DNA from: the human T2T-CHM13v2.0 reference genome, Homo sapiens
NCBI RefSeq assembly: GCF_009914755.1
Contig: NC_060935.1
Strand: one strand, 5' to 3'
Length of the DNA: 64,000 nt
Position numbers and translations under genes: made by a program. The first letter of the stretch is position 1, and each line of letters starts with the position of its first letter. This document shows positions 10,543-55,768 of the stretch, piece after piece. Below the pieces are notes generated by a model that worked only from the letters and a program-made list of their open reading frames with translations, searched no databases and was not told the DNA's origin.

Positions 10543-13500
10543 TTCTTTTTTTTACATTTATTTATTTATTTATTTTTATTATATTTTAAGTTTTAGGGTC
10601 CATGTGCACAATGTGCAGGTTAGTTACATATGTATACATGTGCCATGTTGGTGTGCTGCACCCATTAACTTATCATTTAACATTAGATATATCTCCTAAT
10701 GCTATCGCTCCCCCCTCCCCACACCTCACAACAGGCCCTGGTGTGTGATGTTCCCCTTCCTGTGTCCATGTGTTCTCATTGTTCGATTCCCACCTGTGAG
10801 TGAGAACATGCGGTGTTTGGTTTTTTGTCCTTGCAATAGTTTGCTGAGAATGATGGTTTCCAGCTTCATCCATGTCCCTACAAAGGACATGAACTCACCC
10901 TTTTTCATGGCTGCATAGTATTCCATGGTGTATATGTGCCACATTTTCTTAATCCAGTCTATCGTTGTTGGACATTTGGGTTGGTTCCAAGTCTTTGCTA
11001 TTGTGAATAGTGCCGCAATAAACATACGTGTGCATGTATCTTTATAACAGCATGTTTTATAATACTTTGGGTATATACCCAGTAATGGGATGGCTGGGTC
11101 AAATGGTATTTCTAGTTTTAGATCCCTGAGGAATCACCACACTGACTTCCACAATGGTTGAACTAGTTTACAGTCCCACCAACAGTGTAAAACTGTTCCT
11201 ATTTCTCCACATCCTCTCCAGCACCTGTTGTTTCCTGACTTTTTAATGATCGCCATTCTAACTGGTGTGAGATGGTATCTCATTGTGGTTTTGATTTGCA
11301 TTTGTCTGATGGCCAGTGATGATGAGCATTTTTTCATGTGTCTTTTGGCTGCATGAATGTCTTCTTTTGAGAAGTGTCTGTTCATATCCTTCGCCCACTT
11401 TTTCATGGGTTTTTTTTTTTTCTTGTAAATTTGTTTGAGTTCATTGTAGATTCTGGATATTAGCCCTTTGTCAGATGAGTAGATTGCAAACATTTTCTCC
11501 CATTCTGTAGGTTGCCTGTTCACTCTGATGGTAGTTTCTTTTGCTGTGCAGAAGCTCCTTCATTTAATTAGATCCCATTTGTCAATGTTGGCTTTTGTTT
11601 CCATTGCTTTTGGTGTTTTAGACATGAAGTCCTTGCCCATGTATATGTCCTGAATAGTATTGCCTAGGTTTTCTTCTAGGGTTTTGTTGGTTTTAGGTCT
11701 AACATTTAAGTCTTTAATCCATCTTGAATTAATTTTAGTATAAGGTGTAAGGAAGCGATCCAGTTTCAGCTTTCTACATATGGCAAGCCAGTTTTCCCAG
11801 CACTATTTATTAAATAGGGAATCCTTTCCCCATTTCTTGTTTTTGTCAGGTTTGTCAAAGATCAGATAGTTGTAGATATGCGGCATTATTTCTGAGGGCT
11901 CTGTTCTGTTCCATTGGTCTATATCTCTGTTTTGGTACCAGTACCATGCTGTTTTGGTTACTGTAGCCTTATAGTATAGTTTGAAGTCAGGTAGCGTGAT
12001 GCGTCCAGCTTTGTTCTTTTGGCTTAGGATTGAATTGGCAATGTAGGCTCTTTTTTGGTTCCATATGAACTTTAAAGTAGTTTTGTCCAATTCTGTGAAG
12101 AAAGTCATTGTTAGCTCGATGGGGATGGCATTGAATCTATAAATTACCTTGGGCAGCATGGCCATTTTCATGATATTGCTTCTTCCTACCCACGAGCATG
12201 GAATGTTCTTCCATTTGTTTGTATCCTTTTTTATTTCATTGTGCAGCAGTTTGTAGTTCTCCTTAGAAGAGGTCTTTCACGTCCCTTGTAAGTTGGATTC
12301 CTAGGTATTTTATTTCCTTTGAAGTAATTGCCAATGGGAGTTCTCTCATGATTTGGCTCTCTGTTTGTCTGTTATTGGTGTATAAGAATGCTTGTGACTT
12401 TTGCACATGATTTTGTATCCTGAAACTTTGCTGAAGTTGCCTACCAGCTTAAGGAGATTTTGGGCTGAAATGAAGGGTTTTTCTAGATATACAGTCATGT
12501 CATCTGCAAACAGAGACAATTTGACTTCCTCTTTTCCTAATTGAATACACTTTATTTCCTTCTCCTGCCTGATTGCCCTGGTCAGAACTTCCAACACTAT
12601 GTTGAATAGGAGTGGTGAGAGGGGGCATCCCTGTCTTATGCCAGTTTTCAAAGGGAATGCTTCCAGTTTTTGTCCATTCAGTATGATACTGGCTGTGGGT
12701 TTGTCATAGATAGCTCTTATTATTTTGAGATATGTCCCATGAATACCTAATTTATTGAGAGTTTTTAGCATGAAGCGTTGGTTGTTGAATTTCATCAAAG
12801 GCCTTTTCTGCATCTATTGATATAATCATGTGGTTTTTTCTTTGGTTCTGTTTATATGCTGGATTACATTTATTGATTTGCTTCTGTTGAACCAGTCTTG
12901 CATCCCAGGTACGAAGCCCTCTTGATCATGGTGGATAAGCTTTTTGATGTGCTGCCGGATTCAGTTTGCCATATTTTATTCAGGATTTTTGCATCAATGT
13001 TCATCAGGGATATTGGTCCAACATTCTCTTTTTTTGTTGTGTCTCTGCCAGGCTTTGGTATCCGGATGATTTTGGTCTCATAAAATGAGTTAGGGAGGAT
13101 TCCCTCTTTTTCTATTGATTGGAATAGTTTCAGAAGGAATGGTACCAGCAGCTCCTCCTTGTATCTCTGGTAGAATTCGGCTGTGAATCCTTCTGGTCCT
13201 GGACTTTTTTTGGTTGGTAAGCTATTAATTATTGCCTCAATTTCAGAGCCTGTTATTGGTCTATTCAGAGATTCAACTTCTTCCTGCTTTAGTCTTGGGA
13301 GGGTGTATGTGTCAAGGAATTTATCCATTTCTTCCAGATTTTCTAGTTTTTTTTGCATAGAGGTGTTTATAGTATTCTCTGATGGTAATTTGTATTTCTG
13401 TGGAATTGGTGGTGATATCCCCTTTCTCATTTTTTATTGCGTCTATTTGATTCTTCTCTCTTTTCTTCATTAGTCTTGCCAGCGGTTTATCAATTTTGTG

Positions 13501-15623
13501 GCTCTTTTCAAAAAACCAGCTCCTGGATTCATTGATTTTTTGAAGAGTTTTTTGTGTCTCTATTTCCTTCAGTTCTGCTCTGATCTTAGTTATTTCTTGC
13601 CTTCTGCTAGCTTTTGAATGTATTTGCTCTTGCTTCTCTAGTTCTTTTAATTGTGATGTTCGGGTGTCAATTTTAGGTCTTTCCTGCTTTCTGTTGTGGG
13701 CATTTAGTGCTATAAATTTCCCTCTACACACTGCTTTGAATGTGTCCCAGAGATTCTGGTATGTTTTGTCTTTGTTCTCATTGGTTTCAAAGAACATCTT
13801 TATTTCTGCCTTCATTTAGTTATGTACCCAGTAGTCATTCAGGAGCAGGTTGTTCAGTTTCAATGTAGTTGAGTGGTTTTGAGTGAGTTTCTTAATCCTG
13901 AGTTCTAGTTTGATTGCACTGTGGTCTGAGAGACAATTTGTTATAATTTCTGTTCTTTACATTTGCTGAGGAGTGCTTTACTTCCAACTATGTGATCAAT
14001 TTGGGAATAGGTGTGGTGTGTTGCTGAAAAGAATGTGTATTCTGTTGATTTGGGGTGGAGAGTTCTGTAGATGTCTATTAGGACCTCTTAGTGCAGAGCT
14101 GAGTTCAGTTCCTGGATATCCTTGTTAACTTTCTGTCACGTTGATCTGTCTAATGTTGACAGTGGAGGCTTTGCTCATTTCTTTTTATTCTTTTTTCTGT
14201 AAACTTCTCTTCTCGCTTCATTTCATTCATTTGATCTTCCATCACTGATACCCTTTCTTCCAGTTGATTGAATCAACTACTGAGCCTTTGTGCATTCGTC
14301 ATGTAGTTCTTGTGCCATGGCTTTCAGCTCCATCTGGTCCTTTAAGGACTTCTCTGCATTTGTTATTCTAGTTAGCCATTTGTCTAATTTGTTTTTCAAG
14401 GTTTTAAACTTCTTTGCCATGGGTTCGAAATTCTTCCTTTAGCTTGGAGTAGTTTGATCATTTGAAGCCTTCTCTCAACTCATCAAAGTTATTCTCCATC
14501 CAGTTCTGTTCTGTTGCTGGAGAGAAGCTGTGTTCCTTTGGAGGAGGATAGGTGCTCTGATTTTTAGAGTTTCCAGTTTTTCTGCTCTGTTTTTTCCCCA
14601 TCTTTGTGGTTTTATCTACCTTTGGTCTTTGACAATGGTGACGTACAGATGGGGTTTTGGTGTGGATATCCTTTCTGTTTGTTAGTTTTCCTTCTAACAG
14701 TCAGGACCCTCAGCTGCAGGTCTGTTGGAGTTTGCTGGAGGTCCACCCCAGACCCTGTTTTCCTGGGTATCAGCAGTGGAGGCTGCAGAACAGCGGATAT
14801 TGGTGGACAGCAAATGTTGCTGCCTGATCGCTCCACTGGAAGTTTTGTCTCAGAGGAGTACCTGGCCGTGTGAGGCGTCCATCTGCCCCTACTGGGGGGT
14901 GCCTCCCAGTTAGGCTACTCAGGGATCAGGGACCCACTTGAGGAGGCAGTGTGTCCATTGTCAGATCTGCAGCTGCATGCTGGAAGAACCACTACTCTCT
15001 TGAAAGCTGTCAGACAGGGACAGTTAAGTCTGCAGAGGTTTCTGCTGCCTTTTGTTTGGCTCTGCCCTGCCCCCAGAGGTGGATTCTACAGAGTCAGGCA
15101 GGCCTCCTTGAGCTGCGGTAGTCTCCACCCAGTTTGAGCTTCCTGGCCGCTTTGTTTACCTACTGAAGCCTCAGCAATAGTGGGCGCCTCTCCCCCAGCC
15201 TCACTGCTGCCTTACAGTTTGAGCTCAGACTGCTGTGCTAGCAATGATTGAGCCTCAGTGGGCACAGGACCCTGTGAGCCAGGCGTGGGATACGATCTCC
15301 TGGTGTGCCATTTGCTAAGACCATTGGAAAAGCACAGTATTAGGGTGGGAGTGACCCGATTTTTCAGGTGCCATCTGTCACTCCTTTGACTAGGAAAGGG
15401 AATTCCCTGACCCTTTGCACTTCCTGGGTGAGGTGATGCCTTGCCCTTCTTTGGCTCATGCTCGGTGTGCTGCACCCACTGCCCTGCACCCATTTTCCAA
15501 CACTCTCCAGTGAGATGAACCTGGTACCTCAGTTGGAAATGCAGAAATCACCCGTCTTCTGCATTGCTCACACTGGGAGGTGTAGACTGGAGCTCTTCCT
15601 ATTCAGCCACCTTGGCTCCAACC
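10543..15623 (-). mobile_element. L1PA (about L1PA4/5), both ends present, ~1.1-kb internal deletion; inactive
   Basis: T-rich tail at 10543-10580, 3'UTR, fragmented ORF2 ORFs (RT SLFADDM at 12346..12813), 5'UTR ending cttggctccaacc. EN region joined to ORF1 at ~14165. Confidence 0.93.
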
Positions 15624-16004
15624 TTCCTGCCAGGTCCTTACTTTATACTTGACCTTAGGGAGTTTGATTATTAAATGCCTTGAAGTGGTCTTTGGGTTAA
15701 ATTTCTTGGTGTTCTATAACCTTCTTATAGTTGAATATTGATATCTTTCTCTAGGTTTGGGAAGTTCTCTGTTATTATCCCTTTGAATAAACTTCCTACC
15801 TCTATCTCTTTCTCCACCTTCCCTTTAAGGCCAATAACTCTTAGATTTCCCCTCTGAGGCTACTTTCTAGATCCTGTATGTGTCCTTCATTGTTTTGTAT
15901 TTTGTTTTCTTTTGTTTCCTCTGACTGTATTTTTTTTCAATAGTTTGTCCTCCAGCTCACCAATTCTTTCTTCTGCTTGAGCAATTCTGCTATTAGAAGA
16001 CTTT

Positions 16005-55170: not shown

Positions 55171-55434
55171 CATTACTGCTAGATACCAATATATGCTATT
55201 ATTTCTTTTGTTTGTGAGAAGAAAGCCTATGAATCCATATACAGGATGAAACTAGTAAAACTAAGCCCCAACTTAGTAGAATTTCCCAAATATGCAGAGT
55301 TGTCCTCAGTTGTTTTCTCTCTTTCCTTGAACCATTTCTATACCCCTCAATGCAGAATCTGTGAATCATATGGTGAATGTTTTCTTCATCCAATCAATTT
55401 GTCCCACTGCAATTATCCAAAATGTCCTTTTGAC

Positions 55435-55768
55435 TTTTTCTTTTTTTTTTAAAATTATACTTTAAGTTTTAGGGTACATGTGCACAACGTGCAGGTCAGT
55501 TACATATGTATACATGTGCTATGTTGGTGTGCTGCACCCATTAACTTATCATTTAACATTAGGTATATCTCCTAATGCTATCCCTCCCCCCTCCCCCCAC
55601 CCCACAACATGCCCCGGTGTGTGATGTTCCCCTTCCTGTGTCCATGTGTTCTCATTGTTCAATTCCCAGCTATGAGTGAGAACATGAGGTGTTTGGTTTC
55701 TTGTTCTTGCGATAGTTTGCTGAGAATGATGGTTTCCGGCTTCATCCATGTCCCTACAAAGGACATGA
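55435..55768 (-). mobile_element. L1PA 3'-end fragment (~330 bp)
   Basis: T tail plus L1PA 3'UTR and extreme ORF2 C-terminus. Starts ~33 bp past the OR stop codon. No convincing TSD. Confidence 0.93.

What the first reader, a model, noticed from the sequence alone, without database searches (positions are those of the whole stretch)
11290..55680. Independent L1 insertions of different ages share a patchwork of non-consensus mutations: local L1 gene-conversion network
Seen in sequence: all five L1s covering the codon encode ORF2 ..LTMTFF (variant base at 12111, 16826, 30519, 35191, 49398), whereas the established L1HS/L1PA ORF2p reads KLPMTFF. One of the five is a young L1PA2-like copy. Other non-CpG variants are shared by changing subsets of copies: ggaagCgatcc...tggcAagcc (11751-11790 and 23448-23487); IHAAK plus KPMKK (11351-11420 and 34437-34510); ERPK (~13677 and ~36751); AIRQMQ (~11304 and ~48352); METKA (~11600, ~31024, ~34684); aatgaGaaag (~13427, ~29210, ~36499); PKRGRD (~29581 and ~50338); LLLCWWD (~34272 and ~48234); cccaGctatg (~33880 and ~55669); MQTK (~16006 and ~31333). 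These partitions conflict, so no single tree of descent explains them, and the copies have their own flanks/TSDs. Inference: repeated short-tract interlocus conversion has spread private alleles among neighbouring L1s, i.e. regional concerted evolution. I do not know of a description for this locus, but cannot search.
Basis: partly seen in the sequence, partly recalled or inferred. Interest (0 to 1): 0.85.

Follow-up and report, generated by a model that had tools for sequence, protein, structure and literature searches.

The report
Neighbouring L1 repeats swapped short patches
Separately inserted, dead L1 repeats within 40 kb of human chromosome 11 have copied short stretches of sequence from one another, which is a clear local example of a repair process already known for other repeats.

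Summary
All five L1 copies that cover the codon read ..LTMTFF (ACA). L1HS ORF2p reads KLPMTFF. Genome-wide, only 60 of 9715 intact 23-mers carry ACA, and 4 of those 60 lie in this window.

The copies are separate insertions. An older paralogous block at chr11:50.16 Mb has empty sites for A, C, D and E. A younger paralogous block at chr11:54.50 Mb has A, C, D, E and F but lacks B.

These paralogues date the sharing. A and D carry ACA in both younger blocks. E and F carry it only in the window; their paralogues have the common CCA. B's source element on chr7, traced by a 586-bp 3' transduction, also has CCA. So E, F and B gained the rare allele after they inserted.

A four-sequence test over all L1 pairs agrees. 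In 86 columns two different L1s of the same block share a state that their paralogues lack. Only 36 columns show the cross-block control pattern (p=5e-7).

The best explanation is short-tract non-allelic gene conversion among neighbouring L1s. The exchange is patchy and does not homogenise the copies. Several variants shared by only one pair are at chance level. The mechanism is known for Alu, LTR and single L1 cases, so this is a well-dated new example.

The parts
10548..15640 (-). L1 copy A. It has a full 5' end and a 1.08-kb internal deletion. It carries ACA in both younger blocks, so it is a likely early carrier or donor.
   Evidence: Searches give the extent. One search shows the empty site in older block R (window 10547|15641, 10-bp overlap). 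One search gives the codon state in A and A2.
16002..18956 (.). L1 copy B, young and twin-primed. It has an inverted part at 16002-17620 (-), a 3' part at 17621-18356 (+), a 3' transduction at 18357-18945 and a poly(A) at 18946-18956. It is flanked by the target-site duplication GAAGACTTT.
   Evidence: B is absent from the paralogue at 54.5 Mb; the transduced DNA is 99% identical to chr7:148092200-148092781, where an L1 lies directly upstream and carries CCA.
22950..24131 (.). L1 copy C, twin-primed, with 22950-23562 (-) and 23559-24131 (+). Target-site duplication AAAGAAGTCCTT. It does not cover the codon.
   Evidence: Searches show the empty site in block R.
26138..32082 (+). L1 copy D, about 5.9 kb. 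It carries ACA in both younger blocks.
   Evidence: Searches show the empty site in block R.
33244..39817 (-). L1 copy E (L1 proper 33639-39813) plus a 350-bp transduction-like tail (33298-33649) and an A-rich end. It carries ACA here, but its paralogue E2 carries CCA.
47615..50995 (-). L1 copy F, 5'-truncated, with an Alu-like insert at 48868-49144. It carries ACA here, but its paralogue F2 carries CCA.
   Evidence: Absence from block R is inferred from spacing only.
55435..55768 (-). L1 copy G, a 3' end fragment. It shares one rare base (55669) with E.
   Evidence: No paralogue was examined, so this sharing is untimed and is at chance level.
11355..11417 (-). The A side of the A/E shared tract (columns 5072-5134: five substitutions). 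It is present in A and E but absent from A2 and E2.
   Evidence: The 20-mer covering it occurs 8 times in the genome, 2 of them here.
34441..34503 (-). The E side of the A/E shared tract.
11756..11785 (-). The A side of the A/C shared pair (columns 4707 and 4736). 4707T is also in A2, so it predates the W/P split. C has both bases and C2 has neither.
23453..23482 (-). The C side of the A/C shared pair.

Best explanation
Short-tract non-allelic (interlocus) gene conversion between L1 copies on the same stretch of chromosome. I infer that a DNA break or heteroduplex in one dead L1 was repaired using a neighbouring L1 as template. The neighbour lay 1.5-37 kb away, in either orientation. Tens to a few hundred bases were copied, and any private base change in the donor came with them.

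The shown order of events is as follows. Block R (chr11:50.16 Mb) split off first. A, C, D and E (and F by spacing) then inserted as separate retrotranspositions. The block was duplicated to give the window (W) and chr11:54.50 Mb (P), which are now 93.5-93.8% identical. B then inserted into W from a source on chr7.

The ACA allele was already in A and D before the W/P split. It then appeared in E, F and B in W only. Similar exchanges happened independently in P, for example D2 to E2 and D2/F2.

The exchange is sporadic. It adds a minority of the differences and does not homogenise the copies. The elements are non-coding wrecks, so nothing suggests selection or function.
For: Separate insertions: empty sites with single target-site copies for A, C, D and E in block R and for B in block P. 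There is no flank homology among the copies.

Rarity: ACA is in 60 of 9715 intact 23-mers. Carriers are scattered over the tree of 85 copies.

Timing: A, A2, D and D2 carry ACA. E, F and B carry ACA, while E2, F2 and B's chr7 source carry CCA.

Quartet test over 10 L1 pairs: within-block 101 versus cross-block 45 pair-columns, p=2e-6; non-CpG 66 versus 20. As distinct columns the counts are 86 versus 36, p=5e-7.

Of 627 rare states that arose after the duplication, 68 are shared only with another L1 of the same block and 23 only with an L1 of the other block.

Linked markers: A/E columns 5072-5134 in W only. In P, D2 and E2 share at least 14 sites gained after the duplication, and E2 also carries 4 D-type alleles, all within columns 5091-5921.

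Unusually long identical runs: A-F 161 bp, E-F 140 bp around the codon, D-E 166 bp.

Rare-allele sharing per kb: D-E 4.1 and A-E 2.2, against a mean of 0.33 and a 95th percentile of 1.18 in 2443 outside pairs.
Against: Homoplasy is not negligible. The cross-block control still gives 36 columns. About one rare base per 3 kb is shared by unlinked pairs.

Beyond the codon, B shows no excess of local alleles: 3 rare matches among 19 changes on B's lineage, with about 2 expected by my rough estimate.

Sharing that predates the W/P split (3073G, 4806C and four D-E sites) cannot be separated from inheritance from a common source. E's progenitor could not be recovered.

The polarity at the codon could be reversed (E2 and F2 lost ACA), but that also requires conversion.

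The tract at the codon carries no second marker; it is only bounded to under about 72-106 bp.

Columns in the tests are not independent. Reads were not inspected.
Confidence: 0.85

Rival explanations
1. Parallel independent mutation (homoplasy). On this view the same bases changed by chance in different copies.
For: The cross-block control pattern occurs in 36 columns. Unlinked outside pairs share 0.33 rare bases per kb on average. Some shared sites lie in CpG or A-run contexts. B's other matches to local alleles are at about the chance level.
Against: Within-block sharing exceeds cross-block sharing by 86 to 36 columns and by 68 to 23 states. Three lineages gained the same C-to-A change whose genome-wide frequency is 0.62%. 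Several linked rare markers are shared in short tracts.
Confidence: 0.05
2. A rare L1 sub-lineage. On this view the copies inherited the shared bases from one unusual source element whose offspring landed close together.
For: A, C, D and E (and F by spacing) all inserted in one interval between two duplications. D and E pair in the tree. Some sharing predates the W/P split: 3073G, 3326, 4041, 5625, 4806C. It may account for part of that older sharing.
Against: E2 and F2 lack ACA, and B's traced source lacks it. Many shared states arose after the duplication, in one block only. ACA carriers are scattered over the tree. The joint 4381A + 4806C state is seen only in the chr11 pericentromeric copies among the 56 outside carriers examined. 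To my knowledge no local reinsertion preference of L1 is known (recalled, not searched).
Confidence: 0.07
3. Assembly or polishing artefact, or duplication of one L1 within the block.
For: The region lies in pericentromeric segmental duplications. Reads were not inspected.
Against: The copies are only 91-94% identical, and the two blocks 93.5-93.8%. That is far too diverged for repeat collapse in a telomere-to-telomere assembly (this judgement rests on my own knowledge). The same signal appears independently in block P. Distinct empty sites and target-site duplications exclude in-block duplication.
Confidence: 0.03

Closest known systems
Non-allelic gene conversion between neighbouring Alu elements. 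Aleshin and Zhi 2010, as cited in the review PMC6598467 (I read parts 1-2 of 4). PMC8230782 was seen in a search listing only.
   Same: Dispersed retroelement copies at separate loci exchange short tracts. The rate is said to be raised for copies within about 10 kb. The result is mosaic patterns that conflict with insertion history.
   Different: Here the elements are L1s of 1-6 kb that are only about 92% identical and lie 1.5-37 kb apart. The events are dated by two paralogous duplications and a traced source element, not by subfamily-diagnostic sites.
Conversion between oppositely oriented L1PA7 elements flanking an inversion (PMC5829575, passages read).
   Same: A pair of nearby L1s in inverted orientation act as recombination partners with a conversion tract. 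D and E here are such a pair, 1.5 kb apart.
   Different: That case is a single recent structural event in one cell line. Here there is no inversion (the blocks are colinear), and many small old events involve at least five elements.
Ectopic conversion among LTRs on the human Y chromosome (Trombetta et al. 2016, as described in PMC6598467).
   Same: Clusters of derived bases are transferred between repeat copies, and donors can be identified.
   Different: That work used population polymorphism. This uses fixed differences in one haploid assembly.
Concerted evolution of tandem gene families such as rDNA.
   Same: The same molecular process of non-reciprocal copying is involved.
   Different: There is no homogenisation here. 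True paralogues remain closer than block-mates.

Membership tests
Non-allelic (interlocus) gene conversion | Donor and acceptor are homologous sequences at distinct loci, not copies made by duplication of one locus. | tested here: met
   Empty sites and target-site duplications for A, C, D and E and for B. No flank homology among the copies. F was shown by spacing only.
Non-allelic (interlocus) gene conversion | Sequence relationships conflict with the known history of the copies, beyond what parallel mutation gives. | tested here: met
   In the quartet test, within-block columns number 86 and cross-block columns 36, p=5e-7. Shared states number 68 versus 23.
Non-allelic (interlocus) gene conversion | Contiguous tracts carry several linked donor markers, while the rest of the acceptor keeps its own identity. 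| tested here: met
   A/E columns 5072-5134. D2 to E2 columns 5091-5921, patchy. A to C columns 4707 and 4736. The codon tract itself has only one marker.
Non-allelic (interlocus) gene conversion | The transfer is non-reciprocal, so the donor is unchanged. | tested here: inconclusive
   Direction is inferable where the donor allele predates the duplication (4381, 4707, 5096, 5474, 5509, 5754). Reciprocity cannot be excluded from end states.
Non-allelic (interlocus) gene conversion | The rate falls with distance and with divergence between the copies. | not tested
   There are too few pairs. The closest pair, D/E (1.5 kb apart, inverted), does show the most sharing.
Concerted evolution (homogenised repeat family) | Copies within one array or block are more alike than true paralogues or orthologues in another block. 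| tested here: not met
   For D/E there are 145 paralogy-pattern columns against 38 within-block columns. For A/E the counts are 172 against 22.
Primate L1 (L1PA lineage) retrotransposon copies | ORF2 homology to human L1 ORF2p, a 3' poly(A), target-site duplications, and 5' truncation or inversion. | tested here: met
   ORF2p match with E=9.5e-59. Poly(A) tails and duplications. Twin-priming-type inversions in B and C. Subfamily numbers were not tested because no consensus library was available.
Segmental duplication | Long colinear paralogous blocks that include unique sequence. | tested here: met
   Window versus chr11:54.497-54.524 Mb: 5.7 kb at 93.5% and 21.1 kb at 93.8%. Window versus chr11:50.15-50.18 Mb, inverted: 90.3-94.0%.

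The most novel reading that the evidence does not exclude
Short-tract conversion between neighbouring L1s may be pervasive across the human genome rather than special to this locus. For four rare L1 alleles, carrier pairs within 100 kb outside the chr11 pericentromere number 6, 1, 5 and 12. About 0.19, 0.04, 0.43 and 0.51 are expected from L1 density. At least three such pairs are structurally different insertions. If that excess survives removal of segmental duplicates, a measurable share of substitutions in old L1s is copied rather than mutated. In these two blocks, roughly 45 of 627 rare states that arose after the duplication are in excess of the control. That would bias L1-based mutation-rate and age estimates and subfamily calls in L1-dense regions.
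Probability: 0.45. Interest if true: 0.65.

Novelty: new member of a known kind. Interest (0 to 1): 0.5.

Why it matters
Dead L1 copies are widely used as neutral clocks and for subfamily dating, on the assumption that each copy mutates on its own. This locus shows that copies about 92% identical and up to 37 kb apart still exchange short patches over roughly the last 25-30 million years (my rough dating from divergence).

The evidence includes built-in controls: two paralogous blocks, and a source element traced by its transduced flank. It therefore gives a clean, datable example and a simple test design (within-block versus cross-block quartets) that could be applied genome-wide. It has no bearing on gene function, because the elements are broken and the nearby olfactory receptor genes are pseudogenes.

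Tried and rejected
The codon motif was scanned in prokaryote genome contigs and in viral contigs, to find human L1 contaminants as an outside panel. Both scans gave 0 matches.

The common-allele panel therefore stayed at 22 copies, of which 15 are non-redundant.

E's source was sought through its 350-bp tail. The matching site on chr4 has no L1 upstream in this genome, so E's inherited alleles could not be read (one search was a script crash caused by this).

B was tested for wider conversion against its chr7 source. No excess was found beyond the codon.

In-block duplication of one L1 was rejected on flanks and empty sites. A single sub-lineage was rejected on the tree and on paralogue states.

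Four literature searches found reviews and single cases. They found no paper on this locus and none on systematic exchange between neighbouring L1s. Subscription journals are not covered, and no supplements were opened.

Subfamily naming was not attempted.

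
Full report
**What is there.** Self-comparison of the window finds seven L1 copies that are 91-95.5% identical to each other.
- A: 10548-15640, minus strand.
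- B: 16002-18356, with an inverted 5' part.
- C: 22950-24131, also with an inverted 5' part.
- D: 26138-32082, plus strand.
- E: 33639-39813, minus strand.
- F: 47615-50995, minus strand, with an Alu-like insert.
- G: 55435-55768, minus strand, 3' end only.

All are broken by stops and frameshifts where I translated them.

**The codon.** Solved human L1 ORF2p chains read KLPMTFF at residues 830-836.

**Is it more than chance?** The window's own 3.1-Gb genome can be scanned for patterns.
- The 23-mer around the codon, with either base, occurs 9715 times.
- The ACA form occurs 60 times, which is 0.62%. Four of the 60 are in this window.
- Copy A is a fifth carrier, but a neighbouring change stops it matching the 23-mer.

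I fetched 56 ACA carriers from elsewhere and 22 common-allele copies from chr1. I anchored all of them to copy D. In a tree of these 78 copies and the 7 window copies, ACA carriers are scattered through old and young parts. The 0.62% background therefore looks like recurrent mutation, not a sub-lineage.

The window copies do not form a clade.
- B is young. It is 97.3-97.6% identical to two unlinked copies.
- D pairs with E.
- A pairs with a copy at chr11:54.50 Mb.

Five were also counted genome-wide, at 8 to 99 exact matches.

Rare-allele sharing per kb is high for some window pairs. D-E is 4.1 and A-E is 2.2, and five further pairs (A-C, C-D, D-F, E-F, A-D) are 1.3-1.7. In 2443 outside pairs the mean is 0.33 and the 95th percentile is 1.18. 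B shares almost nothing except the codon.

**The copies are separate insertions.** Flanks show no homology among copies. The genome-wide hits then revealed paralogous blocks.

Block P, chr11:54.497-54.535 Mb, is colinear with the window.
- It aligns over 5.7 kb at 93.5% identity and over 21.1 kb at 93.8%.
- It contains A2, C2, D2, E2 and F2.
- It lacks window 16015-18956, which is B.

B ends in a 586-bp 3' transduction, a second poly(A) and the duplicated target GAAGACTTT. P shows the empty site.

Block R, chr11:50.15-50.18 Mb, is inverted and 90-94% identical to the window.
- It is colinear but lacks C, D and E, each with a short overlap at the junction that marks the target-site duplication.
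- It lacks A, with an empty site at window 10547|15641.
- By spacing it also lacks F: 8093 bp in the window against 4611 bp in R. F's empty site was not read.

The order of events is therefore:
1. R splits off.
2. A, C, D and E (and probably F) insert.
3. W and P split.
4. B inserts.

**Dating the shared codon allele.**
- A, A2, D and D2 carry ACA.
- E and F carry ACA, but E2 and F2 carry the common CCA.
- B's transduced tail maps at 99% identity to chr7:148092200-148092781. An L1 lies directly upstream there, and that source carries CCA.

Three elements therefore show the rare base while their nearest independent witnesses do not. The reverse polarity for E and F (both paralogues lost ACA) would equally need non-independent change.

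Independent mutation would have to hit the same site with the same base on three lineages. Each such hit has a probability of about 1% or less. This is my estimate from branch lengths of about 3% and 1.1%. The joint chance is below about 1e-4 even after allowing for a few hundred candidate sites; this figure is an inference, not a computed test.

**A test that does not depend on one site.** For every pair of insertions X and Y with paralogues X2 and Y2, I counted two-state columns of two kinds.
- Within-block pattern: XY|X2Y2.
- Cross-block pattern: XY2|X2Y.

Without exchange, each pattern needs two hits, so the two should be equally common.

| Count | Within-block | Cross-block | p |
|---|---|---|---|
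| Pair-columns, 10 pairs | 101 | 45 | 2e-6 |
| Pair-columns, non-CpG | 66 | 20 | 3e-7 |
| D-E pair only | 38 | 11 | |
| A-E pair only | 22 | 9 | |
| Distinct columns | 86 | 36 (9 in both) | 5e-7 |
| Distinct columns, non-CpG | 55 | 19 | 1.3e-5 |

Columns in one tract are not independent, so these p-values are optimistic. The asymmetry is nevertheless clear, and it appears in both blocks.

A second count polarises states with the outside copies. There are 627 rare states that differ between a copy and its paralogue. Of these, 68 are shared only with another L1 of the same block and 23 only with an L1 of the other block.

**Tracts.**
- In the window, A and E share five substitutions within columns 5072-5134 that A2 and E2 lack. 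The 20-mer covering this stretch occurs 8 times in the genome.
- C gained A's 4707T. That base is also in A2, so it predates the W/P split. C also carries 4736G.
- In P, D2 and E2 share at least 14 sites gained after the W/P split. E2 also carries four D-type alleles. All lie between columns 5091 and 5921, interrupted by unconverted sites.
- D2 and F2 share five sites between columns 3406 and 4341.
- The codon tract has no second marker. Donor-private sites bound it to under about 72 bp if A was the donor, and under about 106 bp if D was.
- Some identical runs are unusually long: A-F 161 bp, E-F 140 bp around the codon, D-E 166 bp.

**Limits.**
- The cross-block control shows real homoplasy: 36 columns.
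- Variants shared by a single pair at a single site (5185 A/F, 5303 E/F, 3444 D/F, 5696 E/G, 5195 B/D) are individually no stronger than that background.
- Apart from the codon, B shows only 3 rare matches to local alleles among 19 changes on its lineage. I would expect about 2 by chance.
- Sharing that predates the W/P split includes 3073G in A, D and E, and 4806C in A, E, F and D. Several D-E sites belong with it. This could be earlier conversion or inheritance from a common source. E's source could not be read because the chr4 site matching its tail has no L1 now.
- True paralogues remain much closer than block-mates (145 versus 38 columns for D/E). This is sporadic exchange, not homogenisation.
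- The outside panel is small and was selected. No subfamily library was available, and reads were not checked.

**Mechanism.** The following are shown: separate insertions, the order of events, gain of donor alleles in one block only, and linked markers. The following is inferred: break repair or heteroduplex correction using a nearby L1 on the same chromosome as template, with short and patchy tracts. This is favoured where local identity is perfect for 50-140 bp, as around the codon. Copying by L1 cDNA is unlikely because the donors are local dead copies.

**Known or new?** The review I read covers non-allelic conversion between transposable elements. It treats Alu, with a raised rate within 10 kb, and LTRs on the Y chromosome (PMC6598467, parts 1-2 of 4).
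- One paper describes conversion between inverted L1PA7 elements at an inversion (PMC5829575, passages).
- A 1991 mouse paper on L1 conversion is cited in PMC5640379 (reference list only).
- A 2026 preprint lists conversion among the processes that blur old L1 history (PMC13192797, passages).
- Four searches found nothing on this locus and nothing systematic on neighbouring L1s.

I therefore file it as a new, well-controlled member of a known kind.

**Beyond the locus.** Carriers of each of four rare alleles cluster far more than L1 density predicts.

| Allele | Pairs within 100 kb | Outside chr11 48-55.5 Mb | Expected |
|---|---|---|---|
| 4381A | 12 | 6 | about 0.19 |
| 3073G | 7 | 1 | about 0.04 |
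| 4806C | 20 | 5 | about 0.43 |
| 4886A | 15 | 12 | about 0.51 |

Some of these pairs are surely duplications, for example on the Y chromosome and in arrays on chr18. Others are structurally different insertions. This points to a general process but does not show it.

**Verdict.** Interest is moderate.

Noticed in passing
window 10326-40024; L079-L083 (chr11:54.497-54.524 Mb); L087, L089-L091 (chr11:50.15-50.18 Mb): The window belongs to a three-copy segmental duplication that spans the chr11 centromere. One copy lies at 54.50 Mb in the same orientation (93.5-93.8% identical). An older inverted copy lies at 50.16 Mb (90-94% identical). Paired 4806C hits spaced about 14 kb apart at 48.68/48.70 and 54.63/54.65 Mb hint at further copies.
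   Followed up: partly
window 18357-18956; L085/L086 (chr7:148.090-148.094 Mb): Copy B carries a 586-bp 3' transduction that is 99% identical to chr7:148092200-148092781, where an L1 sits directly upstream. B and this source differ at 48 of 1785 columns.
   Followed up: yes
window 33298-33649; L088 (chr4:48.064-48.068 Mb): Copy E is followed by a 350-bp stretch and an A-rich end that look like a 3' transduction. The only other copy, chr4:48067737-48068068 (about 95% identical), has no L1 upstream in this genome. The source element may have been lost or never fixed.
   Followed up: partly
window 10548-50995: Four L1 insertions (A, C, D, E), and a fifth (F) by spacing, landed in about 30 kb of pre-existing sequence. 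They did so in the interval between two duplications whose divergences are roughly 9% and 6.3%. This is a locally dense burst.
   Followed up: partly
L026, L027, L028 (chr4:157.30-157.50 Mb); L014, L015 (chr2:120.48/120.52 Mb): Other neighbouring L1s share the rare ACA allele plus 6-14 further rare bases per 3 kb. L027 and L028 have different 5' ends, so they are not simple duplicates. These may be other conversion clusters or old duplications.
   Followed up: partly
window 14165 (copy A); 48868-49144 and about 50993-51182 (copy F): Copy A lacks about 1.08 kb (copy D columns 1259-2336). Copy F holds an Alu-like insert and a short inverted 5' piece matching D columns 385-574.
   Followed up: no
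window 43822-44766 and 55800-56744: The two annotated olfactory receptor pseudogenes (OR4C2P and OR4C10P) are inverted relative to each other and 71.5% identical over 949 bp. This duplication is far older than the L1s.
   Followed up: no
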